IMG/VR virus record: IMGVR_UViG_3300015174_000004
Location: 1 to 11,335 of that record
Origin: a virus
Taxonomy: Duplodnaviria; Heunggongvirae; Uroviricota; Caudoviricetes
Strand: one strand, 5' to 3'
Length of the DNA: 11,335 nucleotides
Numbering within the stretch: the stretch's first letter is position 1; every line of letters begins with the position of its first letter. Shown here one piece after another: positions 1-11,335 of this stretch. The translations under genes were made by a program, and so were the position numbers. The notes under the pieces are model-generated. The model was not told the DNA's origin and did no database searches. It saw only the letters and a list, made by a program, of their open reading frames with translations.

Positions 1-1077
1 GATGAATGGAACCAGCAGGAGGCCGCCCGCATTGCGACAGAAGCATACTCATCCTCAATGATCCAGCGCACCAACCAGATTAAAGAAAATCTTGGTTATC
101 TTGAGACTGCATGTAAAGCAGTCGCAAACTCCGCAAAATGGGCATGGGATTCCATGCTGGATATTGGCAGTGAGGCCTCCCTTGATCAAAAAATCTCAGA
201 TGTTCTACGTCAAATTGATGAAATAGAAAAAAATACCCGACCCGGAGTTTTCGGGTTAGGTGGCATTGGAGATGGCGGAGCTCAAAATAAAAAGCTGGCA
301 CGATTAAAGCAGCAATTGGGCGTACTTCAAGCAGAAAAAATTGCTCAGGACGTACTAAATTCATCAATAAACGATTACAACAAGCGACAACAGGAAGGAA
401 TTGAACTCAGACAGAGAGCAGATGCTTTTTCAAAACAATATCAGACCCGGGAGCAGCAGAGAGCTAGTGAACTTGCAAAACTGGAAAAGCTAAAGAATCA
501 GTATTCAAAGGAAGAATATAATAATCTTATCGCTCAAATAAATGAGCGTTATAAAGATCCAAAGCAACCAAAGGCGAAAGGTTATTCGGATGATGCTGCC
601 CAACGAGTGATTGATCATCTGAATCAACAGAATGCGTTACTAAGTTCACAAGCTGAATTGACCGTTAAATTAAGTTCCTCTGAACAGGAACTGGTTAAGT
701 GGCGTCAGCAGATTGCCGACCTGGAGTCACGACCGTCATCGAAATTAACCCAGGATCAGAAATCGCTTCTCTTACACCGGGAAGAAATAACCGCGTTGAT
801 GGAGAAAAATGTTGCGATTGAAAAAAATAACAGGCTAATCAAGGAATCCGCCGAAATAGCTGCATGGCGTGATTCATTGCAGGCTTCAATTGATAATCGT
901 CAGCAGGGGTATGATATTCAGATTGCTGGTTATGGGGTTGGCGATAAAAATCAGCAACGCCAGCAGGAATTACTGCGGATTGAACGTGAATATAACAATC
1001 AGCGTCTGCAACTTGAACGTGACTATGCAGATAAATCCCGTGGGATGTCAAATCATGTTTTTCAGGAGAAAATGTAG
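1..1077 (+). CDS. Phage tail tape measure protein, 5'-partial; reading frame is closed by an in-frame TAG at 1075-1077
   Basis: Frame 1 is open from base 1 (the gene starts upstream of the window). The translation is rich in Q/E/K/R with coiled-coil character, typical of tape measure proteins, and it sits immediately upstream of the M-L-K-I-J tail-tip genes. The region is AT-rich compared with L-J. Confidence 0.7.
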   Translation, partial: DEWNQQEAARIATEAYSSSMIQRTNQIKENLGYLETACKAVANSAKWAWDSMLDIGSEASLDQKISDVLRQIDEIEKNTRPGVFGLGGIGDGGAQNKKLARLKQQLGVLQAEKIAQDVLNSSINDYNKRQQEGIELRQRADAFSKQYQTREQQRASELAKLEKLKNQYSKEEYNNLIAQINERYKDPKQPKAKGYSDDAAQRVIDHLNQQNALLSSQAELTVKLSSSEQELVKWRQQIADLESRPSSKLTQDQKSLLLHREEITALMEKNVAIEKNNRLIKESAEIAAWRDSLQASIDNRQQGYDIQIAGYGVGDKNQQRQQELLRIEREYNNQRLQLERDYADKSRGMSNHVFQEKM

Positions 1078-1242
1078 GCTCTGAATGATGCTCTGGAACG
1101 AGAAAAAGAAATTGTCAGACAGAAAAACGAGCAGCTCGATATTCAGGCAGGAGACTGGGTTAGTGGTGCCTCCCAGGGATTCAATAACTGGCTGGATGAC
1201 ACTAAGGATATCAGTGAGCAGATAAAATCAACCACGACTCAG

Positions 1243-1812
1243 ATGTTTGATGGAATGACCGATGCGCTGGGTGATTTTGTCACGACAGGCAAGGCAAATT
1301 TTCGTTCTTTCGCTACTTCCGTGATTTCGGATCTTAGTCGAATAGCATTAAAGGCTTCAATTACTGGGATTTTCGACAGCATTAGTAACAGTTCTTCGGG
1401 GGGGATTTTAGGAACTATCGGGAGTGCTATTAGTAAATTTATTCCGAATGCAAAGGGCGGTGTTTATGAGTCTCCGTCATTGAACACGTATTCGAACGGT
1501 ATTTATGATTCCCCGCAATTTTTTGCTTTTGCAAAAGGGGCTGGTGTTTTTGGTGAGGCTGGTCCGGAAGCCATTATGCCATTAACACGAACTTCCGATG
1601 GTTCTCTTGGTGTCAGAGCTATTAATTGTAAAAGTGGTAATGGAGGCGGAGATATTACCTATGCCCCTGTATACCAAATCACTATTCAAAATGACGGCCA
1701 GAATGGAGAGATTGGCCCTCAGGCAATAAAAGCACTTATGGGGATGGTTGATCAGCGGGTGCAGGGCAATCTGTTAAATATGCGACGTGATGGGGGAATG
1801 TTAAGTGGCTAA
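1243..1812 (+). CDS. Tape measure protein C-terminal segment, same frame as 1-1077; the in-frame continuation actually begins at 1078 directly after the TAG
   Basis: Frame 1 has no stop from 1078 to the TAA at 1810-1812. The translation is Gly/Ser-rich and hydrophobic, as expected for a tape measure C-terminus. There is no Shine-Dalgarno sequence before the ATG at 1243, so independent initiation is unlikely. Together with 1-1077 this looks like one gene interrupted by one amber codon. Confidence 0.6.
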   Translation: MFDGMTDALGDFVTTGKANFRSFATSVISDLSRIALKASITGIFDSISNSSSGGILGTIGSAISKFIPNAKGGVYESPSLNTYSNGIYDSPQFFAFAKGAGVFGEAGPEAIMPLTRTSDGSLGVRAINCKSGNGGGDITYAPVYQITIQNDGQNGEIGPQAIKALMGMVDQRVQGNLLNMRRDGGMLSG

Positions 1813-2143
1813 TACGGAAGAATTTCACTGGTTACCAGAGGATGGAATGAAAACAGAAAATAAACCATCGATAAAAACTGTAAGATTTGGCGATGGTTAT
1901 GAGCAACGAAGTCCAAATGGACTTAATCATTCTCTGCGCGTTTTCACCTGTGATTTCAAAGTTGAGGCGAATGAACGTGATTCATTTGAAAAATTTTTAG
2001 CCCGGCATGAAGGCTATAAATCTTTTTTTTGGCGCCCGCCTGGTATTAACAGAAAAATCAGAGTGGTGTGTCGAACGTGGTCAGCGACAGAACATATCAC
2101 CTATACCGATTTTTCGTGTCAGTTTGACGAAGTGGTGATCTGA
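1805..2143 (+). CDS. M: Minor tail / tail-tip assembly protein, lambda gpM-like
   Basis: A 112-aa ORF with a GTG start at 1805, preceded by GGGGGAA, and overlapping the tape measure stop. It contains a VRFGDGY motif and has the size and position of lambda gpM. An alternative start is the ATG at 1847, which has a GAGGA upstream. Its stop TGA (2141-2143) overlaps the L start as TGATG. Confidence 0.75.
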   Translation: MANTEEFHWLPEDGMKTENKPSIKTVRFGDGYEQRSPNGLNHSLRVFTCDFKVEANERDSFEKFLARHEGYKSFFWRPPGINRKIRVVCRTWSATEHITYTDFSCQFDEVVI

Positions 2144-2841
2144 TGCAGGACATACAACAGGAAACGCTGAATGAATGCATTCGTGCGGAGCAGTCGGCCA
2201 GCGTGGTGCTCTGGGAAATCGACCTGACCGAGGTAGGCGGGGATCGCTACTTTTTCTGCAATGAGCAGAACGAGAAAGGAGAGTCTGTCACCTGGCAGAG
2301 TCGGCAGTATCAGGCCTATCCCATTCAGGGGAGTGGATTTGAGATGAACGGCAAAGGTGCCAGTGCAAGGCCAACGCTGAAAGTCTCTAATCTGCACGGC
2401 ATGGTCACCGGGATGGCGGAAGACCTGCAGAGTCTGGTCGGCGGAACGGTGGTCAGGCGTAAGGTTTACGCCCGTTTTCTGGATGCGGTGAACTTCGTCA
2501 ACGGAAACAGTGACGCCGATCCGGAGCAGGAGGTGATCAGCCGCTGGCGTATTGAGCAGTGCAGCGAACTGAGCGCGGTCAGTGCCTCCTTTGTACTGTC
2601 CACGCCGACGGAAACGGACGGTGCCGTTTTTCCGGGGCGCATCATGCTGGCTAATACCTGCACCTGGACCTATCGCGGTGATGAGTGCGGTTATCACGGT
2701 CCGGCGGTCGCGGATGAATATGACCAGCCGACATCCGAAATCACGAAGGATAAATGCAGCAAATGCCTGAGTGGCTGTAAGTTCCGCAATAATGTCGGCA
2801 ACTTTGGCGGCTTCCTTTCCATTAACAAACTTTCGCAGTAA
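2143..2841 (+). CDS. L: Minor tail protein L, lambda gpL-like
   Basis: A 232-aa ORF whose translation (MQDIQQETLNECIRAEQSASVVLWEIDLTEVGG... CSKCLSGCKFRNNVGNFGGFLSINKLSQ) matches lambda gpL as I recall it almost residue for residue. It includes the C-terminal Cys cluster. GC content rises abruptly at its start. Confidence 0.9.
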   Translation: MQDIQQETLNECIRAEQSASVVLWEIDLTEVGGDRYFFCNEQNEKGESVTWQSRQYQAYPIQGSGFEMNGKGASARPTLKVSNLHGMVTGMAEDLQSLVGGTVVRRKVYARFLDAVNFVNGNSDADPEQEVISRWRIEQCSELSAVSASFVLSTPTETDGAVFPGRIMLANTCTWTYRGDECGYHGPAVADEYDQPTSEITKDKCSKCLSGCKFRNNVGNFGGFLSINKLSQ

Positions 2842-2845
2842 TCCC

Positions 2846-3589
2846 ATGACAGAGACAGAATCAGCGATTCTGGCGCACGCCCGGCGATGTGCGCCAGCGG
2901 AGTCGTGCGGCTTCGTGGTGAGAACGTCGGAAGGGGAAAGATATTTTCCCTGCGTGAATATCTCCGGTGAGCCGGAGGATTATTTCCGGATGGCTCCGGA
3001 GGACTGGCTGCAGGCAGAAATGCAGGGTGAGATTGTGGCGCTGGTCCACAGCCACCCCGGTGGTCTGCCCTGGCTGAGTGAGGCTGACCGGCGGCTGCAG
3101 GTGCAGAGTGATTTGCCGTGGTTGCTGGTCTGCCGGGGGGCGATTCATAAGTTCCGCTGTGTGCCGCATCTCACCGGGCGGCGCTTTGAGCACGGGGTGA
3201 CGGACTGTTACACGCTGTTCCGGGATGCTTATCATCTGGCGGGGATTGAGATGCCGAATTTTCATCGCGGGGATGACTGGTGGCGTCACGGCCAGAATCT
3301 CTATCTGGATAATCTGGAGGCCACAGGGCTGTATCAGGTGCCGTTGTCATCAGCACAACCGGGCGATGTGCTGCTGTGCTGTTTTGGTTCATCGGTGCCG
3401 AATCATGCCGCCATTTACTGTGGTGACGGCGAGCTGCTGCACCATATTCCTGAACAACTGAGCAAACGAGAGAGGTATACCGACAAATGGCAGCGACGCA
3501 CACACTCCCTCTGGCGTCACCGGGCATGGCGCGAATCTGCCTTTACGGGGATTTACAACGATTTGGCCGCCGCATCGACCTGCGTGTGA
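2846..3589 (+). CDS. K: Tail-tip assembly protein K, lambda gpK-like, with an MPN/JAMM-type domain and an NlpC/P60-like domain
   Basis: A 247-aa ORF from the ATG at 2846, which lies 5 nt after the L stop. It has a JAMM-like motif (E...HSHPGGLPWLSEAD) and a papain-like Cys/His signature (TDCYTLF ... NHAAIY). A shorter alternative start is the ATG at 2990 (MAPEDW...). The six-frame ORF from 2771 overlaps L and is not the likely start. Confidence 0.8.
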   Translation: MTETESAILAHARRCAPAESCGFVVRTSEGERYFPCVNISGEPEDYFRMAPEDWLQAEMQGEIVALVHSHPGGLPWLSEADRRLQVQSDLPWLLVCRGAIHKFRCVPHLTGRRFEHGVTDCYTLFRDAYHLAGIEMPNFHRGDDWWRHGQNLYLDNLEATGLYQVPLSSAQPGDVLLCCFGSSVPNHAAIYCGDGELLHHIPEQLSKRERYTDKWQRRTHSLWRHRAWRESAFTGIYNDLAAASTCV

Positions 3590-4134
3590 AAACGGGGGCC
3601 GAAGCAGTCCGGGCGCTGACCACACAGCTTCCGGCGTTTCGTCAGAAACTGAGCGACGGCTGGTATCAGGTACGCATTGCCGGGCGTGATGCAGGTGAAA
3701 CTGAATTATCAGCCCGTCTTAATGAACCGCTGGCAAATGGTGCCGTGATCCACATTGTGCCGCGTCTGGCGGGAGCCAAAAGTGGCGGTCTTTTTCAGGC
3801 TGTGCTGGGGGCGGCGCTGATTGCGGTGGCATGGTGGAACCCTGCAGGTTGGTTGGGGGCTGCCGCAATTACAGGAATGTATGGTGCGGGGGCCAGTATG
3901 GTGCTCGGTGGTGTGGCGCAGATGCTGGCACCGAAAGCCAGAACTCCCCGTACACAGACAACGGATAACGGCAAACAGAACACCTATTTCTCCTCACTGG
4001 ATAACATGGTTGCCCAGGGCAATGTTCTGCCGGTTCTGTACGGTGAAATGCGCGTGGGGTCACGGGTGATTTCGCAGGAGATCAGCACGGCAGATGAAGG
4101 AGATGGTGGTCAGGTTGTGGTGATTGGTCGTTGA
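3487..4134 (+). CDS. I: Tail-tip assembly protein I, lambda gpI-like
   Basis: A 215-aa ORF with GAGAGAGG upstream of its ATG. It has a hydrophobic Gly/Ala-rich central segment and a C-terminus (YGEMRVGSRVISQEISTADEGDGGQVVVIGR) that resembles lambda gpI. It overlaps the 3' end of K by 103 nt in a different frame. Confidence 0.8.
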   Translation: MAATHTLPLASPGMARICLYGDLQRFGRRIDLRVKTGAEAVRALTTQLPAFRQKLSDGWYQVRIAGRDAGETELSARLNEPLANGAVIHIVPRLAGAKSGGLFQAVLGAALIAVAWWNPAGWLGAAAITGMYGAGASMVLGGVAQMLAPKARTPRTQTTDNGKQNTYFSSLDNMVAQGNVLPVLYGEMRVGSRVISQEISTADEGDGGQVVVIGR

Positions 4135-4151
4135 TGCAGAATGTTTTGTGT

Positions 4152-4173
4152 GAAACCGCCTCAGGGCGGTTTT
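4152..4173 (+). terminator. Perfect 8-9 bp hairpin (GAAACCGCC-TCAG-GGCGGTTTT) in the I-J intergenic spacer, followed by an interrupted T-tract; possible attenuator or RNA stability element
   Basis: The inverted repeat is read directly from the sequence between the I stop (4132-4134) and the J start (4195). The downstream T-run is interrupted (TTTTGTCGTTTCTGG), so termination would be partial at best. Confidence 0.3.
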
Positions 4174-4194
4174 GTCGTTTCTGGAGCGTGAGGA

Positions 4195-7100
4195 ATGGGT
4201 AAAGGCAGCAGTAAGGGGCATACCCCGCGCGAAGCGAAGGACAACCTGAAATCATCCCAGATGCTGAGCGTGATAGACGCCATCAGTGAAGGGCCGATTG
4301 AAGGTCCGGTGGACGGATTAAAAAGTGTGCTGCTGAATAGTACGCCGGTGCTGGACAGTGAGGGGAATACCAATATCTCCGGTGTCACGGTGGTGTTCCG
4401 GGCCGGTGAGCAGGAGCAGACACCGCCGGAGGGATTTGAATCCTCCGGCTCCGAGACGGTGCTGGGTACGGAAGTGAAGTACGACACGCCGATTACCCGG
4501 ACCATCACGTCTGCAAACATCGACCGTCTGCGCTTTACCTTCGGTGTGCAGGCACTGGTGGAAACCACCTCAAAGGGGGACCGGAATCCGTCGGAAGTCC
4601 GCCTGCTGGTTCAGATACAGCGTAACGGTGGCTGGGTGACGGAAAAAGACATCACCATTAAAGGCAAAACCACCTCGCAGTATCTGGCCTCGGTGGTGGT
4701 GGATAACCTGCCGCCGCGCCCGTTTAATATCCGGATGCGCAGGATGACGCCGGACAGCACCACAGACCAGCTGCAGAACAAAACGCTCTGGTCGTCATAC
4801 ACCGAAATCATCGATGTGAAACAGTGCTACCCGAACACGGCACTGGTCGGCGTACAGGTGGACTCGGAGCAGTTCGGCAGCCAGCAGGTGAGTCGTAATT
4901 ATCATCTTCGCGGGCGCATTCTGCAGGTGCCGTCGAACTATAACCCGCAGACGCGACAATACAGCGGTATCTGGGACGGAACGTTTAAGCCAGCATACAG
5001 CAACAACATGGCCTGGTGTCTGTGGGATATGCTGACCCATCCGCGCTACGGCATGGGAAAACGTCTTGGTGCGTCGGATGTGGATAAATGGGCGCTGTAT
5101 GTCATCGGCCAGTACTGCGACCAGTCGGTGCCGGACGGCTTTGGCGGCACGGAGCCGCGCATCACCTGTAATGCCTGGCTGACCACGCAGCGTAAGGCGT
5201 GGGATGTGCTCAGTGATTTCTGCTCGGCGATGCGCTGTATGCCGGTATGGAACGGGCAGACGCTGACGTTCGTGCAGGACCGACCATCAGATAAGGTGTG
5301 GACCTATAACCGCAGTAATGTGGTGATGCCGGATGATGGCGCGCCGTTCCGCTACAGCTTCAGCGCCCTGAAGGACCGCCATAATGCCGTTGAGGTGAAC
5401 TGGATTGACCCGAACAACGGCTGGGAGACGGCGACAGAGCTTGTTGAAGATACGCAGGCCATTGCCCGTTACGGTCGTAATGTCACGAAGATGGATGCCT
5501 TTGGCTGTACCAGCCGGGGGCAGGCACACCGCGCCGGGCTGTGGCTGATTAAAACGGAACTGCTGGAGACGCAGACCGTGGATTTCAGCGTGGGTGCTGA
5601 AGGGCTTCGCCATGTACCGGGCGATGTCATTGAAATCTGCGATGATGACTATGCCGGTATCAGCACCGGTGGTCGCGTGCTGGCGGTGAACAGCCAGACC
5701 CGGACGCTGACGCTCGACCGTGAAATCACGCTGCCATCCTCCGGTACCACGCTGATAAGCCTGGTTGACGGAAGTGGCAATCCGGTCAGCGTGGAGGTTC
5801 AGTCCGTCACCGACGGCGTGAAGGTAAAAGTGAGCCGTGTTCCTGACGGTGTTGCTGAATACAGCGTATGGGGGCTGAAGCTGCCGACGCTGCGCCAGCG
5901 ACTGTTCCGCTGCGTGAGTATCCGTGAGAACGACGACGGCACGTATGCCATCACCGCCGTGCAGCATGTGCCGGAAAAAGAAGCCATCGTGGATAACGGG
6001 GCGCACTTTGACGGCGACCAGAGCGGCACGGTGAATGGTGTCACGCCGCCAGCGGTGCAGCACCTGACCGCCGAAGTCACCGCAGACAGCGGGGAATATC
6101 AGGTGCTGGCGCGCTGGGACACGCCGAAGGTGGTGAAGGGCGTGAGCTTCCTGCTCCGTCTGACCGTAACAGCGGACGACGGCAGTGAGCGGCTGGTCAG
6201 CACGGCCCGGACGACGGAAACCACATACCGCTTCACGCAACTGGCGCTGGGGCGTTACACGCTGACAGTCCGGGCGGTAAATGCGTGGGGGCAGCAGGGC
6301 GATCCGGCATCGGTATCGTTCCGGATTGCGGCACCGGCAGCGCCTGTCACTATTGAACTGATACCAGGGTATTTTCAGATAACAGCGGTCCCGAAACTGG
6401 CTGTATATGACCCGACGGTGCAGTTTGAGTTCTGGTTCTCGGAAAAGCGGATTACCGATATCAGGCAGGTTGAAACCAGCGCGCGTTATCTTGGTACGGC
6501 GCTGTACTGGATAGCCGCCAGTAGCAATATTAAGCCGGGTTATGATTATTACTTTTATATCCGCAGCGTGAACACTGTTGGTAAATCGGCATTTGTGGAG
6601 GCCGTCGGTCGGGCGAGCGATGATGCGGAAGGTTATCTGAATTTTTATAAAGGGTTGATCAATAAAACGCATCTCGGCAAGGAACTGCTGGAAAACTTTG
6701 AGCTGACGGAAGATAACGCCAGCAAACTGGAGGAGTTTTCGAAAGAGTGGAAGGACGCTAACGATAAATGGAATGCCATGTGGGGCGTCAAAATTGAGCA
6801 GACCAAAGACGGCAAACATTATGTCGCGGGTATTGGCCTCAGCATGGAGGATACGGAGGAAGGCAAACTGAGCCAGTTCCTGGTTGCCGCTAACCGTATC
6901 GCGTTTATTGACCCGGCAAACGGGAATGAAACGCCGATGTTTGTGGCGCAGGGCAACCAGATATTCATGAACGACGTGTTCCTGAAACGCCTGACGGCCC
7001 CCACCATTACCAGCGGCGGTAATCCTCCGGCATTTTCCCTGACACCGGACGGGCGGCTGACGGCGAGAAATGCTGATATCAGCGGTAACGTGAATGCGAA

Positions 7101-7608
7101 CTCCGGGACGCTCAATAATGTCACGGTAAATGAAAACTGTACGATTAAGGGCATGCTGGAGGCGAACCAGGTCAGAGGTGACTTCGTTAAAACTGTATCC
7201 AAATCATTCCCGAAAAAGGCTGGTACGTGGGGTAACACGGAAACACCAAACGGGACGGTTACAGTCACCATTTACGATGATCATAACTTTGACCGCCAAA
7301 TCATTATTCCGCCCATTATTTTTAACGGTGTGGCGTATGACGATCCGGGGAGCGGTAATAACCCGGGAGGTACGCGATACACGGGTTATGGTTTTGAAGT
7401 TCGCAAAAATGGCGTATTAATCGCATCCAGAGAAACTAAAGGAGCCATTCCCGGTAGTTACAGTGCGGTTATTGATATGCCGAGTGGTGGTGGTAACGTC
7501 ACTCTGGAGTTTAAGATTTTCCAGAAAGGCAATCAGGGCGCAGGTAACATCACAGACTGTACGGTGATTGTGACCAAAAAAGCTGCTTCCGGTATCAGTA
7601 TCCGTTGA
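4195..7608 (+). CDS. J: Host specificity protein J (central tail fiber / tail tip), lambda gpJ-like
   Basis: A 1137-aa ORF with GGAG 8 nt upstream of its ATG. Its size, position after I, and N-terminal and central sequence are typical of lambda J. The last ~1 kb is visibly more AT-rich, consistent with an exchanged receptor-binding region. Confidence 0.9.
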
Positions 7609-7629
7609 AATATTTATAACCCCAATACG

Positions 7630-7657
7630 GGCGCCAGAAATGGCGCCTTTTTTATTT
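7630..7657 (+). terminator. Rho-independent terminator downstream of J
   Basis: GGCGCC-AGAAAT-GGCGCC forms a perfect GC-rich stem and is followed by TTTTTTATTT. It begins 22 nt after the J stop. Confidence 0.65.
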
Positions 7658-7668
7658 GTGGAGTGAGT

Positions 7669-10041
7669 ATGGCAGTACAGATTTCAGGTGTGCTGAAAGA
7701 TGGTGCGGGAAAACCAATACAGAACTGCACTATTCAACTGAAGGCAAAGCGTAACAGCACCACGGTACTGGTGAACACGGTGGCCTCTGAAAATCCGGAT
7801 GAAGCCGGGCGTTACAGCATGGATGTTGAGTATGGCCAGTACAGCGTTATCCTGCTGGTTGAAGGTTTTCCGCCTTCACATGCCGGAACCATTACCGTCT
7901 ATGAAGGTTCCAGACCAGGTACGCTGAATGATTTTCTCGGTGCCATGACGGAAGATGATGTCATGCCGGAGGCATTGCGTCGTTTTGAGGCAATGGTGGA
8001 AGAAGCGGCACGCAACGCTGAAGCCGCCTTTCAGAGCGCAGCGGCGGCAAAGAAATCCGAAGCTGCTGCGGCATCATCGAAGAACGCGGCGAAAAGCTCA
8101 GAAACGAATGCAGCTAACAGCGCACAGGCGGCAGCGGCCTCACAGACTGCATCGGCAAACTCCGCGACAGCAGCCCAAAAATCAGAAGCCAACGCGAAAA
8201 ATAGCGAAACAGCCGCAAAGACGAGCGAAACCAACGCGAAGTCCAGCCAGACGGCAGCGAAAACCAGCGAAACGAATGCCAAAGTCAGTGAAACTGCAGC
8301 GAAAAACAGCCAGGCTGCAGCAGCTGAAAGCGAGAGCGCAGCAGCCGGTTCTGCGACTTCAGCAGCTGGATTAGCAACTGCTGCGGCTAACAGCCAGAAA
8401 GCTGCGAAGGCGAGCGAAACTAACGCAAAGTCCAGCCAGACGGCAGCGAAGACCAGCGAAACGAATGCCAAAGCCAGCGAAACTGCGGCGAAAAGCAGTC
8501 AGGATGCAGCAGCCGAAAGCGAGAGTGCTGCAGCTGGTTCTGCAAGCGCGGCGGCTGCTTCTGCCACTGCATCAGCTAACAGTCAAAAAGCAGCAAAAAC
8601 CAGTGAAACCAACGCAAAGGTGAGCGAAACAGCGGCTGCGAACTCAGCGAAAGCATCGGCAGCAAGCCAGACGGCAGCTAAAGCAAGCGAAGATGCAGCC
8701 AGAGAGTACGCAAGCCAGGCTGCGGAGCCGTATAAATATGTCTTACAGCCGCTGCCTGATGTGTGGATACCATTTAACGATTCGCTGGATATGATTACGG
8801 GCTTTTCGCCGTCATATAAAAAGATTGTTATTGGTGATGATGAAATAACGATGCCTGGCGACAAGGTTGTTAAGTTTAAACGCGCATCGAAAGCAACCTA
8901 TATTAATAAATCTGGTGTGCTGACAGAGGCTGCCATTGACGAGCCACGGTTTGAACGTGATGGCCTGCTTATTGAGGGGCAAAGAACGAACTACATGCTC
9001 AATTCGGAAAGCCCTGCCAGTTGGGGGCGATCGTCAAATATGGATGTGCCCGAAACCGGGACGGATAGTTTTGGTTTTACCTATGGAAAGTTTGTCTGTA
9101 ACGATTCTCTGATTGGGCAAACCTCAGCCATTAATATGGCATCAATTGCTGCAACAAAGTCAGTTGATGTCTCAGGCGATAATAAACACGTGACAACCTC
9201 ATGTCGTTTTAAAACAGAACTGCAGGTAAGGTTGCGTATCCGGTTTGATAAATATGACGGTAGCGCAACAACTTTTCTTGGTGATGCGTATATTGATACA
9301 CAAACGCTTGAAATTAATATGACAGGCGGTGCTGCCTCAAGGATTACAGCGAGAGTCAGAAAGGACGAAGCTACCGGATGGATTTTTGCAGAGGCAACAA
9401 TTCAGGCAATTGATGGGGAGTTAAAAATAGGTTCTCAGATACAGTATTCTCCTAAGCAGGGCGGGGCAACCGTATCTGGTGACTATATTTATCTGGCCAC
9501 CCCACAAGTAGAAAATGGGCCTTGTGTATCATCTTTTATTATATCAGGAACGACGGCGGCGACCCGCGCAAGCGATATAGTTACAGTTCCAATTAAGAAT
9601 AATCTTTATAATCTTCCTTTTACGGTTCTTTGTGAGGTACATAAGAACTGGTATAAAACGCCAAATGCAGCGCCGCGTGTTTTTGACACCGGCGGTCATC
9701 AAACCGGAGCGGCTATTATTCTTGGCTTCGGTTCTTCAGCAGATTACGACGGATTTCCTTATTGCGATATTGGAGGAGCTAACAGACGGGTAAACGAAAA
9801 CGCATCGCTTGAAAAAATGGTTATGGGGATGCGTGTAAAGTCAGATCAGTCTACGTGCTCAGCAAGTAACGGGCGTATATCCAGCGAAACAAAAACCACA
9901 TGGTCCTGTATTCAGAACACCGCAATTATCCGTATTGGAGGCCAGACTACAGCCGGGTTACGTCATTTATTTGGTCATGTCAGGAATTTCAGAATATGGC
10001 ACAAGGCATTGACTGATGCTCAGGTGGGGGAGTCAATCTAA
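7669..10041 (+). CDS. stf: Side tail fiber protein: Stf-like N-terminus, Ala/Ser/Thr-rich repeat shaft, and a C-terminal domain with a LamG/concanavalin-like signature
   Basis: The ATG at 7669 is preceded by GGAG (7660-7663). The N-terminus (MAVQISGVLKDGAGKPIQNCTIQLKAKRNSTTV...GRYSMDVEYGQYSVIL) resembles lambda Stf. The middle is built from 7-aa repeats. The C-terminus ends in ...LFGHVRNFRIWHKALTDAQVGESI, which looks like the terminal strand of a LamG-like jelly-roll; this is a motif-level inference. The six-frame track starts at GTG 7663, but the ATG at 7669 is more likely. Confidence 0.85.
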   Translation: MAVQISGVLKDGAGKPIQNCTIQLKAKRNSTTVLVNTVASENPDEAGRYSMDVEYGQYSVILLVEGFPPSHAGTITVYEGSRPGTLNDFLGAMTEDDVMPEALRRFEAMVEEAARNAEAAFQSAAAAKKSEAAAASSKNAAKSSETNAANSAQAAAASQTASANSATAAQKSEANAKNSETAAKTSETNAKSSQTAAKTSETNAKVSETAAKNSQAAAAESESAAAGSATSAAGLATAAANSQKAAKASETNAKSSQTAAKTSETNAKASETAAKSSQDAAAESESAAAGSASAAAASATASANSQKAAKTSETNAKVSETAAANSAKASAASQTAAKASEDAAREYASQAAEPYKYVLQPLPDVWIPFNDSLDMITGFSPSYKKIVIGDDEITMPGDKVVKFKRASKATYINKSGVLTEAAIDEPRFERDGLLIEGQRTNYMLNSESPASWGRSSNMDVPETGTDSFGFTYGKFVCNDSLIGQTSAINMASIAATKSVDVSGDNKHVTTSCRFKTELQVRLRIRFDKYDGSATTFLGDAYIDTQTLEINMTGGAASRITARVRKDEATGWIFAEATIQAIDGELKIGSQIQYSPKQGGATVSGDYIYLATPQVENGPCVSSFIISGTTAATRASDIVTVPIKNNLYNLPFTVLCEVHKNWYKTPNAAPRVFDTGGHQTGAAIILGFGSSADYDGFPYCDIGGANRRVNENASLEKMVMGMRVKSDQSTCSASNGRISSETKTTWSCIQNTAIIRIGGQTTAGLRHLFGHVRNFRIWHKALTDAQVGESI
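8221..8598 (+). repeat. Two tandem 189-bp (63-aa) imperfect direct repeats inside stf, each built from nine 21-bp (7-aa) sub-repeats; degenerate copies extend from about 8040 to 8700
   Basis: Unit 1 (8221-8409) encodes TSETNAKSSQTAAKTSETNAKVSETAAKNSQAAAAESESAAAGSATSAAGLATAAANSQKAAK. Unit 2 (8410-8598) encodes ASETNAKSSQTAAKTSETNAKASETAAKSSQDAAAESESAAAGSASAAAASATASANSQKAAK. A third, partial unit starts at 8599. Confidence 0.8.
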
Positions 10042-10322
10042 TGAAAGATTTAACACTCAAATTTGAAGACAGGGCCGACTTTTCGGCCTTTATGGAGAGT
10101 ATTGGCTATTATGATGACGAGTCGATGCAGGATGATATTCTTATCGACGTGATAGGTAACGCGTACAAAGAAACCGGAGAACTGACTGAAGATGGCGAAC
10201 CGGTATGTGTTAAGGAAGACGGATATTTTGTAAACGTGCGCATCATTAATGATTCGCAAATATCGTCATTATTCGATGAGTACGTGGTTGCTGTTGAGCA
10301 TCAACTTCGTGGCTGGATGTGA
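10041..10322 (+). CDS. Hypothetical small, highly acidic protein (93 aa) of unknown function, translationally coupled to both neighbours
   Basis: Its ATG overlaps the stf stop as TAATG (10039-10043). Its TGA stop (10320-10322) lies inside the Shine-Dalgarno sequence (GAGGAAG) of the next gene. It has roughly 22 Asp/Glu against about 8 basic residues. I recognise no homologue. Confidence 0.55.
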   Translation: MKDLTLKFEDRADFSAFMESIGYYDDESMQDDILIDVIGNAYKETGELTEDGEPVCVKEDGYFVNVRIINDSQISSLFDEYVVAVEHQLRGWM

Positions 10323-10331
10323 GGAAGAAAA

Positions 10332-11268
10332 ATGGCTACATCGACAGTAATTCCTGATGACATCAAAACGCTAAAATCCGACGTTAGCAAATTAAAAAAC
10401 GATCAAGGAAGCTACGCAACAAAATTATATGTAGACAGCAAAGATGAAATCGTTGGTGACTGGTCTGCTTCATGGTATCAGCAGGTATTGCCAACTAGCG
10501 GAGCTATATTTGGGAGAAAACTCCGCTCAACTCACAGGACGGCAGGTGTTGAGGATGCGTATTGCGAACTATACCTCAAAAAATGGATAGACAGTCCAGG
10601 TAACGCAATGGCGCGCCTTAACCTGAACGATAACGGGACAAACATTTGCTGGGACTTTACCAACCTTTATGGCGGTACGATGATTTTTCCCGGTGACAGC
10701 GGATACCTCAAAATGGGTAACTGCCTTATGTCATACAGCAAGCGTGGAAGTAACGCGCTTATTAAATTTGATTACACCGACACATTACAGATCAAATATG
10801 CCAATCATGGGTCAACCATTACATTAAACACACAGGTAACCGCTTATGCTGGTGTTACTGCTCAATTGTGGGGCAACTCCAGCCGTCCTGTTGTTTATGA
10901 AGTCGGTGTTGATGGTGGCGCTTATATGTTCTATGCGCAGAAAAATACCGATAACACCTATATGTTAAGCGTTAATGGTGCATGTCATGCCACAGCATTT
11001 AACCAGCATTCAGACCGGGATCTGAAAGACAACATTCAGGTGATCGATAAAGCAACCGACCACATCCGTAAAATGAACGGCTATACATACACGCTTAAAG
11101 AAAACGGTATGCCCTATGCTGGTGTCATTGCACAGGAAGCTCTGGAAGCAATCCCAGAAGTTGTAGGTTCCGCAATGAAATATCAGGACGGTGCAAGCGG
11201 ATCGGAAGGTGAAGAAGGTGAACGTTATTACACAGTAGATTATTCTGGTGTTACTGGCTTGCTTGTTC
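10332..11268 (+). CDS. Short tail fiber / receptor-binding-like protein with a C-terminal intramolecular chaperone (peptidase S74-like) domain; 3'-truncated at the end of native sequence
   Basis: The ATG at 10332 follows GAGGAAG. The C-terminal region (HSDRDLKDNIQVIDKATDHIRKMNGYTYTL...YAGVIAQEALEAIPEVV) matches the hallmark of endosialidase/T5 pb1-type self-cleaving chaperone domains. It has a Ser-x4-Lys pair (S227 at 11010-11012, K232 at 11025-11027). The apparent end of the ORF (IGRASCRERV, stop at 11301-11303) is encoded by adapter sequence, so the true C-terminus is missing. Confidence 0.7.
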
Positions 11269-11335
11269 AGATCGGAAGAGCGTCGTGTAGGGAAAGAGTG
11301 TAGATCTCGGTGGTCGCCGTATCATTAAAAAAAAA
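11269..11335 (+). other. Non-biological sequence: Illumina TruSeq adapter read-through (11269-11326) followed by a 9-nt poly-A (11327-11335)
   Basis: The 58 nt AGATCGGAAGAGCGTCGTGTAGGGAAAGAGTGTAGATCTCGGTGGTCGCCGTATCATT is the standard Illumina adapter-trimming sequence, which is the reverse complement of the universal P5 adapter. It is followed by nine A's at the contig terminus. Confidence 0.92.

What the first reader, a model, noticed from the sequence alone, without database searches (positions are those of the whole stretch)
7669..11268. Unusual three-gene distal fiber module: Stf-like fiber, acidic 93-aa protein, and a short fiber with a self-cleaving chaperone domain
Downstream of J and its terminator, three genes are tightly coupled (TAATG overlap at 10039-10043; the next gene's Shine-Dalgarno sequence overlaps the middle gene's stop). 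There is no lom gene and no separate tail-fiber-assembly (Tfa-type) chaperone gene, which lambda-like Stf loci normally carry. Instead the third protein has its own C-terminal chaperone domain. That protein has only about 225 residues ahead of the predicted cleavage site and no long N-terminal shaft or obvious virion-anchoring domain. This suggests either a branched fiber, where the short protein docks onto the Stf-like fiber, or use of the acidic 93-aa protein as an adaptor. The pairing of a lectin-like fiber with a second self-processing binding protein would give two receptor specificities.
Basis: partly seen in the sequence, partly recalled or inferred. Interest (0 to 1): 0.72.

Follow-up and report, generated by a model that had tools for sequence, protein, structure and literature searches.

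The report
Two-part prophage side tail fibre
An E. coli lambda-like prophage encodes a side tail fibre made of a long anchored protein, a small acidic helper protein and an exchangeable short tip fibre with a self-cleaving chaperone; the layout is real, but it is common and has already been modelled in a related phage.

Summary
After J and a terminator come three tightly coupled genes: a 790-aa Stf-like fibre, an acidic 93-aa protein and a short fibre with a Peptidase_S74 chaperone domain. No lom or tfa lies in the window.

Two corrections apply. Bases 11269-11335 are an Illumina adapter, so gene 3 is cut short; it is 346 aa in relatives. In relatives a fourth gene, a 95-99-aa membrane protein, follows.

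The module is not unusual. Near-identical copies occur in 391 of 5,426 complete E. coli genomes and in isolated phages such as Tritos, HannyBb, 2G7b and PhiR63_1.

The same unit recurs in lambdoids, Drexlerviridae, Dhillonvirus, Queuovirinae, T5-like phages and a P2-like prophage. It consists of the fibre C-terminal cassette, a 92-93-aa gene, and a downstream fibre starting M[AV]TxTxIPxDIxxLK.

The best reading is a two-segment fibre. Stf anchors to the tail tip and carries a sugar-binding-like end domain. The short fibre docks through its conserved N-terminal peptide and folds with its own chaperone. The 93-aa protein belongs to the proximal cassette; its role is unproven.

A published AlphaFold-Multimer model of phage IrisVonRoten shows this architecture. 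Verdict: new member of a known kind, of modest interest.

The parts
7629..7648 (+). Intrinsic-terminator-like hairpin (8 bp stem, 6 GC pairs) followed by TTTTTATTT, between J and the fibre genes
7669..10041 (+). Stf-like proximal side tail fibre, 790 aa from ATG 7669 (mechanical ORF from GTG 7663)
   Evidence: phrog_1419 matches over the full length
7669..8061 (+). Tail-tip anchoring domain (Pfam PF08400, prophage tail fibre N-terminal)
   Evidence: E 1.6e-66; PDB 9e7m 'Tail fiber protein', E 1.8e-49
8062..8724 (+). Ala/Ser/Thr/Lys/Glu-rich shaft. It contains a 189-nt tandem unit of 2.2 copies at 8203-8619. Shaft length varies among homologues (685-792 aa).
8725..10038 (+). Portable C-terminal cassette of 438 aa. 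It holds a conserved start (EPYKYVLQPLPDVWIPFNDSLDM), an RcGTA head-spike-fibre-like beta-sandwich (about 8968-9570), and an exchangeable last ~150 aa with a weak LamG/ConA-like C-terminal signature (about 9868-10026).
   Evidence: NF048003, 51 bits vs cut-off 36; PDB 6tb9 Rcc01080, E 4.5e-7; Laminin_G_3, 19.2 bits, below cut-off
10041..10322 (+). Acidic 93-aa protein (phrog_1361, function unknown). Its start overlaps the Stf stop (TAATG).
10332..11270 (+). Short distal fibre, 3'-truncated in the window (313 of 346 codons)
10332..10376 (+). Conserved N-terminal peptide MATSTVIPDDIKTLK, the inferred docking element
10434..10661 (+). Hypervariable stretch of the short fibre (residues ~35-110). 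It is 30-45% identical between alleles that are 80-100% identical elsewhere.
11010..11270 (+). Intramolecular chaperone / Peptidase_S74 domain starting at S227 (SDRDLK), cut off by the adapter
11269..11335 (.). Illumina TruSeq universal adapter (58 nt) plus A9. This is not biological sequence.

Best explanation
The region encodes a two-segment side tail fibre of a lambda-like E. coli prophage.

1. Proximal segment (shown by homology). The 790-aa Stf-like protein anchors to the tail tip through its lambda-Stf-type N-terminal domain. It extends as an Ala-rich shaft and ends in a portable 438-aa cassette. The cassette contains a beta-sandwich related to the capsule-binding head-spike fibre of the Rhodobacter gene transfer agent, plus an exchangeable end domain with a weak LamG-like signature.

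2. Distal segment. The third gene encodes an exchangeable fibre of 346 aa. That its C-terminal Peptidase_S74 chaperone drives trimerisation and then cuts itself off at Ser227 is inferred from the family mechanism. The mature 226-residue fibre is inferred to plug into the distal end of Stf through its conserved first ~15 residues. This would give the virion a second receptor-binding site.

3. The 93-aa acidic protein. It is a fixed companion of the proximal cassette, not of the distal fibre. Most likely it assists folding or assembly of that cassette, or forms part of the socket. This step is inferred and is the weakest.

4. The unit as a whole. Cassette, small protein and N-terminal peptide together behave as a portable joint that moves between phage families.
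For: - Anchor domain: PF08400 (E 1.6e-66) and PDB 9e7m (E 1.8e-49).
- Cassette spread: about 52-56% identity over the whole aligned protein to the T5-like IrisVonRoten Gp22 and phage 21 Stf, and 44% to the KarlJaspers fibre, despite different N-termini. There are 2,522 clusters at 90% identity, some with P2-type N-termini.
- Linkage of the small gene: the 92-93-aa gene directly follows the cassette, usually overlapping its stop, in every context examined.
- Downstream fibres: they differ in body (346, 227-241, 574, 351 or 303 aa; split into 98 + 196 aa in KarlBarth) but share M[AV]TxTxIPxDIxxLK. In 17 of 17 phages listed in both searches, the motif ORF starts within 20 nt of the small gene.
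- Chaperone of the distal fibre: it comes with that fibre. It is S74 in cis here and in four other alleles. In a P2-like prophage it is a separate Caudo_TAP after a gp34/gp37-type distal fibre.
- Catalytic motif: the S227/K232 spacing is read from the sequence. There are weak matches to the S16 gp37 and MYRF chaperone domains.
- Selection: purifying, with dN/dS about 0.2.
- Published model: IrisVonRoten has a proximal Gp22 with a galectin-like end domain plus a distal Gp24 (PMC11990801).
Against: - No physical evidence was obtainable here that the short fibre binds Stf. No complex prediction was possible.
- The AlphaFold model of the Stf cassette was poor (pLDDT 41), so the fold assignment rests mainly on sequence.
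- The Laminin_G_3 match is below Pfam's cut-off.
- Phage 21, ev243 and 4A7 lack the distal fibre, so the proximal fibre can apparently stand alone.
- The window carries an amber codon in the tape-measure gene, so this particular prophage may not make virions.
Confidence: 0.62

Rival explanations
1. The 93-aa protein is a structural adaptor: a stable virion component that physically bridges the Stf end domain and the N-terminal peptide of the short fibre.
For: - It always lies between the two fibre genes and is translationally coupled to both.
- It is conserved at 37-54% across families, as the docking peptide is.
- IrisVonRoten Gp23 is annotated 'tail fiber protein' in GenBank, without stated evidence.
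- The best, weak fold match is to an adaptor domain, MecA.
Against: - It is retained with intact reading frames in phage 21, ev243, 4A7 and nimi, where no motif-bearing fibre follows.
- No fusion to either fibre appears among 91 family clusters.
- No proteomic report was found in the literature searches.
Confidence: 0.25
2. The short fibre is an independent appendage. It attaches directly to the tail tip (J or neighbouring proteins) or to the Stf N-terminal region, not to the Stf distal end.
For: - Siphoviruses can carry several separately anchored fibres.
- Low-contour density in DT57C was read as LtfB folded back on the tail tip (PMC10713586).
Against: - The same N-terminal peptide occurs in lambdoid, Drexlerviridae, Dhillonvirus, Queuovirinae, T5-like and P2-like contexts. 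Their tail tips or baseplates are unrelated. The only shared neighbours are the cassette and the small protein.
- No anchoring domain was detected in residues 1-226.
Confidence: 0.08
3. The module is a decaying remnant with no role in virions.
For: - The window's prophage has an amber codon in the tape-measure gene.
- The T-HYM1 relative has a frameshifted tape-measure gene and a tfa fragment downstream.
Against: - All three frames are intact in hundreds of genomes and in plaque-forming phages.
- dN/dS is about 0.2.
- Allelic exchange is confined to plausible receptor-binding stretches.
Confidence: 0.03

Closest known systems
Lateral tail fibre locus of Tequintavirus IrisVonRoten (Bas32): Gp22, Gp23, Gp24 (Humolli et al. 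2025, PMC11990801)
   Same: - The gene order is the same: a long fibre, then a 92-aa protein, then an S74-bearing fibre.
- Gp22 is 52% identical to the window's Stf over 744 aligned residues, higher over the C-terminal cassette.
- Gp23 is 38% identical to the 93-aa protein.
- Gp24 starts MVTKTVIPTDITKLK.
- The authors' AlphaFold-Multimer model has distal Gp24 attached to proximal Gp22, with a galectin-like end domain proposed as an extra receptor-binding domain.
   Different: - The anchor is T5-type (LtfC collar) rather than the lambda Stf N-domain.
- The distal fibre is 574 aa and T-shaped with two receptor-binding domains, against 346 aa here.
- The role of Gp23 is not discussed in the paper.
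Branched lateral tail fibres LtfA/LtfB of T5-like phages DT57C and DT571/2 (Golomidova 2016, PMC4728585; Ayala 2023, PMC10713586)
   Same: A tail-anchored fibre carries a second, shorter fibre that has no anchor of its own. Each has its own receptor specificity, and the second fibre has a C-terminal S74 chaperone.
   Different: - In DT57C both proteins carry S74 domains.
- The sections read mention no small intervening protein; the DT57C locus itself was not examined.
- LtfA does not end in the GTA-spike/LamG-like cassette.
- Homology to the present joint was not shown.
Bacteriophage lambda Stf-Tfa side tail fibre
   Same: The N-terminal anchoring domain is the same (PF08400; PDB 9e7m, E 1.8e-49), as is the position downstream of J.
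   Different: - In lambda, lom lies between J and stf, and a T4 gp37-like tip needs the separate Tfa chaperone (own knowledge).
- Here there is no lom.
- The tip is a different cassette.
- The gene in the tfa position is unrelated to Caudo_TAP (hhalign probability 1%).
- A second fibre follows.
Intramolecular chaperone (Peptidase_S74) fibres and spikes: K1F endosialidase, T5 pb1, S16 gp37
   Same: There is a Pfam S74 hit, Ser and Lys are spaced as in the family's SDxxLK motif, and a coiled-coil tail follows.
   Different: The mature part is very short (226 aa) and has no shaft or virion anchor. The domain is incomplete in the window because of the adapter.
Anchor-branch receptor-binding protein pairs of Klebsiella KP32-like phages (Latka 2019, PMC6872550; cited from own knowledge, not read here)
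   Same: The concept is the same: a first protein anchored to the tail carries a second protein that docks through a short conserved N-terminal peptide.
   Different: The docking domain there is T4 gp10-like. No sequence relationship was tested, and those proteins are tailspikes rather than fibres.

Membership tests
Lambda-type side tail fibre (Stf) | N-terminal tail-tip anchoring domain (PF08400) | tested here: met
   Pfam E 1.6e-66 and 222.8 bits against a cut-off of 26.6; PDB 9e7m E 1.8e-49
Lambda-type side tail fibre (Stf) | Followed by a Caudo_TAP (Tfa) assembly protein that serves a gp37-like tip | tested here: not met
   The window has no Caudo_TAP hit. hhalign of the 93-aa profile against a Caudo_TAP protein gives probability 1%. 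Relatives carry only a tfa fragment further downstream.
Peptidase_S74 / intramolecular chaperone fibres | C-terminal S74 domain above Pfam's cut-off | tested here: met
   51.2 bits against a cut-off of 22 in the window copy; 52.8 bits in the full-length Tritos copy
Peptidase_S74 / intramolecular chaperone fibres | Catalytic Ser and Lys in the SDxxLK motif at the start of the domain | tested here: met
   S227-D-R-D-L-K232 read from the sequence. That these two residues form the catalytic dyad comes from own knowledge of the endosialidase family.
Peptidase_S74 / intramolecular chaperone fibres | Autoproteolytic release of the chaperone after trimer folding | not testable with these tools
   Needs protein expression or virion mass spectrometry
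Two-segment or branched lateral tail fibres (IrisVonRoten Gp22/Gp24; DT57C LtfA/LtfB) | A proximal fibre with a tail anchor plus a second fibre without one, encoded next to each other | tested here: met
Two-segment or branched lateral tail fibres (IrisVonRoten Gp22/Gp24; DT57C LtfA/LtfB) | Physical attachment of the second fibre to the first | not testable with these tools
   There is only comparative inference and a published prediction for a homologue
RcGTA head-spike-fibre domain (NF048003) | Profile match above the curated cut-off | tested here: met
   51 bits against a cut-off of 36, residues 436-636; PDB 6tb9 Rcc01080 E 4.5e-7
Concanavalin A-like lectin / LamG (PF13385) | Profile match above the gathering score | tested here: inconclusive
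Tail fibre assembly chaperones (Caudo_TAP) as identity of the 93-aa protein | Sequence or fold similarity to Tfa proteins | tested here: not met

The most novel reading that the evidence does not exclude
The Stf C-terminal cassette, the 92-93-aa acidic protein and the M[AV]TxTxIPxDIxxLK peptide may together form a portable 'plug-and-socket' fibre joint. Horizontal transfer would move it between siphoviruses and myoviruses, letting any distal receptor-binding fibre, with its own chaperone, be mounted on any proximal fibre. In this reading the small protein is a previously undescribed joint subunit or joint-specific assembly factor.
Probability: 0.3. Interest if true: 0.6.

Novelty: new member of a known kind. 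Interest (0 to 1): 0.36.

Why it matters
Side tail fibres decide which O-antigen or capsule types a temperate phage can reach, and lambda-derived particles are being engineered as DNA delivery vehicles.

If the conserved N-terminal peptide and the small protein define a transferable socket, they offer a simple handle. New receptor-binding tips could be bolted onto lambda-type fibres without redesigning the shaft or the chaperone.

The work also gives a testable role to a widespread 'hypothetical' gene family (phrog_1361).

For genome annotation, two practical points follow. Gene 3 of such loci should be called a distal tail fibre. ORF tails ending in ...GRASCRERV are adapter artefacts.

Tried and rejected
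- **Long multi-stretch hits to the 93-aa profile.** These proteins of 395-1838 aa turned out to be PKD/TPR repeat proteins. I rejected them as spurious, so there is no Rosetta-stone fusion.
- **Tfa homology of the 93-aa protein.** Rejected.
- **Profile search of PDB with gene 3 alleles.** It reached no further than a single-sequence search; T5 pb1 was not recovered.
- **Literature searches.** Searches for HannyBb, Tritos and ECOR13 prophages, and papers on engineered lambda Stf chimeras, Cronobacter phage fibres, BF23 and PhageMaP, gave nothing on this module or on the small protein.
- **First IMG/VR scan.** It returned only close relatives at 92-100% identity. These were useful for allele counts but not for distant context.
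Full report
**What is in the window**

The window is the tail-tip end of a lambda-like prophage. It holds the end of the tape-measure gene, homologues of M, L, K and I, and a 1,137-aa J protein (4195-7608) with the full set of J domains. Bases 698-11270 are 99.8% identical to a prophage of E. coli strain T-HYM1. Bases 2191-11270 are 96% identical to phage Tritos.

**Checking the observation**

- A hairpin with eight pairs (six G-C) and a T-run lies at 7629-7648, after the J stop.
- The fibre gene starts at ATG 7669. The purely mechanical ORF begins at GTG 7663, but the homologous lambda protein in PDB entry 9e7m begins MAV.ISG.
- The fibre stop and the next start overlap as TAATG at 10039-10043.
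- The 93-aa protein (10041-10322) is strongly acidic, with pI 4.05.
- Its TGA stop lies inside the GAGGAAG ribosome-binding site of the third gene, which starts at 10332.
- The third protein matches Pfam Peptidase_S74 from residue 227 (E 1.6e-13). It carries the motif S227-D-R-D-L-K232, which leaves 226 residues ahead of the expected cleavage site.
- Neither lom nor a Caudo_TAP gene is in the window.
- The genes are under purifying selection: median dN/dS among alleles is 0.20 for the small gene and 0.18 for the third gene.

**Two corrections**

First, bases 11269-11335 are the Illumina TruSeq universal adapter followed by nine A. The third gene is therefore cut at about 11270, and the apparent C-terminus ...IGRASCRERV is an artefact. 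The complete protein has 346 residues in Tritos and T-HYM1.

Second, relatives show a fourth gene directly after it. It encodes a 95-99-aa protein that the phage 21 record annotates as a putative membrane protein with two transmembrane segments. This gene is present in nearly all of the 70 related IMG/VR loci in which gene 3 is complete, whichever short-fibre allele they carry. Beyond it, T-HYM1 has only a tfa fragment and Tritos has a PinR invertase gene.

**How common it is**

The segment 8700-11268 is found at 80% coverage or more in 391 of 5,426 complete E. coli genomes, and in part in 1,567. Five records, representing four isolated phages (Tritos, HannyBb, PhiR63_1 and 2G7b), carry the whole region at 97-98% identity.

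The 93-aa family (phrog_1361) occurs in 181 phage records. These include:
- phage 21 and other lambdoids;
- Drexlerviridae such as KarlJaspers;
- Dhillonvirus;
- Nonagvirus JenP1;
- T5-like phages such as IrisVonRoten;
- rV5-like phages.

It is nevertheless a small family, with 91 clusters at 50% identity in 1.84 billion representatives, all short stand-alone proteins. The few long hits were PKD/TPR repeat proteins and were discarded.

The 438-aa C-terminal part of the fibre has 2,522 clusters at 90% identity. It is joined to lambda-type, T5-type and even P2-type N-termini.

**Anatomy of the long fibre**

- Residues 1-131 are the lambda Stf anchoring domain.
- An Ala-rich shaft follows, with a 189-nt tandem unit.
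- The C-terminal cassette begins with a highly conserved stretch (EPYKYVLQPLPDVWIPFNDSLDM).
- The cassette contains a domain related to the head-spike fibre of the Rhodobacter gene transfer agent: NCBIfam NF048003 at 51 bits against a cut-off of 36, and PDB 6tb9 at E 4.5e-7.
- The last 53 residues give a sub-threshold match to the end of the LamG/concanavalin-like domain.

Against phage 21, the window's cassette is nearly identical up to about residue 640 and then diverges sharply over the last ~150 residues, as read from the alignment. That pattern is what one expects of an exchangeable receptor-binding end.

**Anatomy of the short fibre**

- Residues 92-342 are homologous to the distal ends of long fibres in other phages (phrog_6578 and phrog_5668, E 1e-66 and 6e-62).
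- There are weak matches to T4 gp34 and to the chaperone domains of S16 gp37 and MYRF.
- Among 346-aa alleles, residues ~35-110 are only 30-45% identical while the rest is 80-100% identical.
- A second allele class of 227-241 aa, also with an S74 domain, replaces it in 28 of 70 related loci.

**The key comparative result**

All these downstream fibres begin with the same peptide, whatever their body.

| Context | Length | N-terminal peptide |
|---|---|---|
| This window | 346 aa | MATSTVIPDDIKTLK |
| KarlJaspers | 225 aa | MATVTNIPADITALK |
| IrisVonRoten | 574 aa | MVTKTVIPTDITKLK |
| JenP1 | 351 aa | MVTKTIIPTDITTLK |
| KarlBarth | 98 aa (split fibre) | MVTKTNIPADITALK |

In all 17 phages listed in both searches, the motif-bearing ORF starts within 20 nt of the end of the 92-93-aa gene.

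A P2-like E. coli prophage is especially informative.
- Its gpH-type fibre ends in the same cassette.
- A 92-aa homologue (49% identical) follows.
- Next comes a 303-aa fibre starting MATVTTIPADITNLK, with gp34/gp37-type trimerisation domains and no S74 domain.
- Last comes a classical Caudo_TAP chaperone.

So the distal fibre brings its own chaperone, in cis or in trans, and the small protein is not that chaperone.

Conversely, phage 21, ev243, 4A7 and the rV5-like phage nimi keep the cassette and the small gene but have no motif-bearing fibre. The small protein therefore goes with the proximal cassette.

**The 93-aa protein**

**Mechanism proposed**

*Shown by homology.* Stf anchors to the tail tip, and the third protein carries an S74 chaperone with its Ser/Lys motif.

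*Inferred.*
- The chaperone trimerises the short fibre and is cut off at Ser227.
- The mature 226-residue fibre docks by its N-terminal peptide on the distal end of Stf. The peptide travels only with the cassette and the small protein, across phages whose tails are otherwise unrelated.
- The small protein helps assemble the cassette or forms part of the socket.
- Both the Stf end domain and the short fibre bind receptors, probably surface glycans.

I could not distinguish a branched junction from an end-to-end one.

**Comparison with the literature**

The BASEL papers note that lateral tail fibres of siphoviruses may consist of one polypeptide or of two or more (PMC8594841). For IrisVonRoten they show an AlphaFold-Multimer model. 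In it the distal T-shaped Gp24 attaches to the proximal Gp22, whose galectin-like end domain is proposed as an extra receptor-binding domain (PMC11990801). Gp22, Gp23 and Gp24 are homologous to the three proteins here.

Genetic work on DT57C established branched fibres in T5-like phages (PMC4728585, PMC10713586).

I found nothing on the small protein, on the conserved N-terminal peptide as such, or on the lambdoid version of the module.

**Verdict**

The docking idea is supported by comparative evidence. The claim that the module is unusual is not supported.

This is a new (lambdoid) member of a known kind of two-part lateral tail fibre. Interest is modest. It rises if the cassette, small protein and peptide prove to be a transferable joint.

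Noticed in passing
window 11269-11335: An Illumina TruSeq universal adapter (AGATCGGAAGAGCGTCGTGTAGGGAAAGAGTGTAGATCTCGGTGGTCGCCGTATCATT) plus A9 sits at the contig end. It extends the gene 3 ORF with the bogus tail ...IGRASCRERV and a false stop at 11301-11303.
   Followed up: yes
window 1075-1077: There is an in-frame TAG in the tape-measure gene (...VFQEKM*ALNDALE...). The 99.8%-identical T-HYM1 prophage has CAG here, although its own tape-measure gene is annotated as frameshifted. This is either a defective prophage or a sequencing error.
   Followed up: partly
window 1-11335 (composition): GC content is sharply mosaic: about 0.43 at 1-2000, 0.56-0.63 at 2000-6250, and about 0.44-0.50 afterwards, except for the Ala-rich shaft at 7750-8750. 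The drop near 6250 falls inside J, which suggests a recombinant J C-terminal part.
   Followed up: no
window 8203-8619: A 189-nt tandem unit (2.2 copies, 81% matches) lies in the Ala-rich shaft. Homologues of 685, 727/728 and 792 aa suggest that shaft length changes by gain or loss of repeat units.
   Followed up: partly
L001 9816-10109; L002 10716-11009; L005 5292-5585: A conserved 95-99-aa protein (MDITPFLHALCAVAAQ...; phrog_1443, function unknown), annotated in the phage 21 record as a putative membrane protein with two transmembrane segments, follows the fibre genes in almost all relatives. It is present whether or not a distal fibre is there. Its function is unknown; it may be a lysogenic-conversion or exclusion gene.
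   Followed up: partly
L001 10337-10927; L002 11029-11148: Tritos has a PinR-type invertase gene downstream of the module, and T-HYM1 has a 40-codon tfa fragment. These look like leftovers of an older invertible stf-tfa tip that the present module replaced.
   Followed up: no
L030 4292-4996 and 27 other IMG/VR loci: An alternative distal-fibre allele has only 227-241 aa. It consists of the docking peptide, a coiled-coil-like stretch, a short body and an S74 domain from residue ~116. The mature product would be only about 115 residues.
   Followed up: partly
L091 1-3999: A P2-like E. coli prophage carries the same cassette on a gpH-type fibre, followed by a 92-aa homologue, a 303-aa motif-bearing distal fibre that the source's gene caller missed, and a Caudo_TAP chaperone.
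   Followed up: yes
L090 2917-5333: In phage 4A7 three transposase genes (an insertion sequence) interrupt the stf gene upstream of the 92-aa gene. Several E. coli genomes likewise have an IS3-family element inside this module (H31-H33).
   Followed up: no
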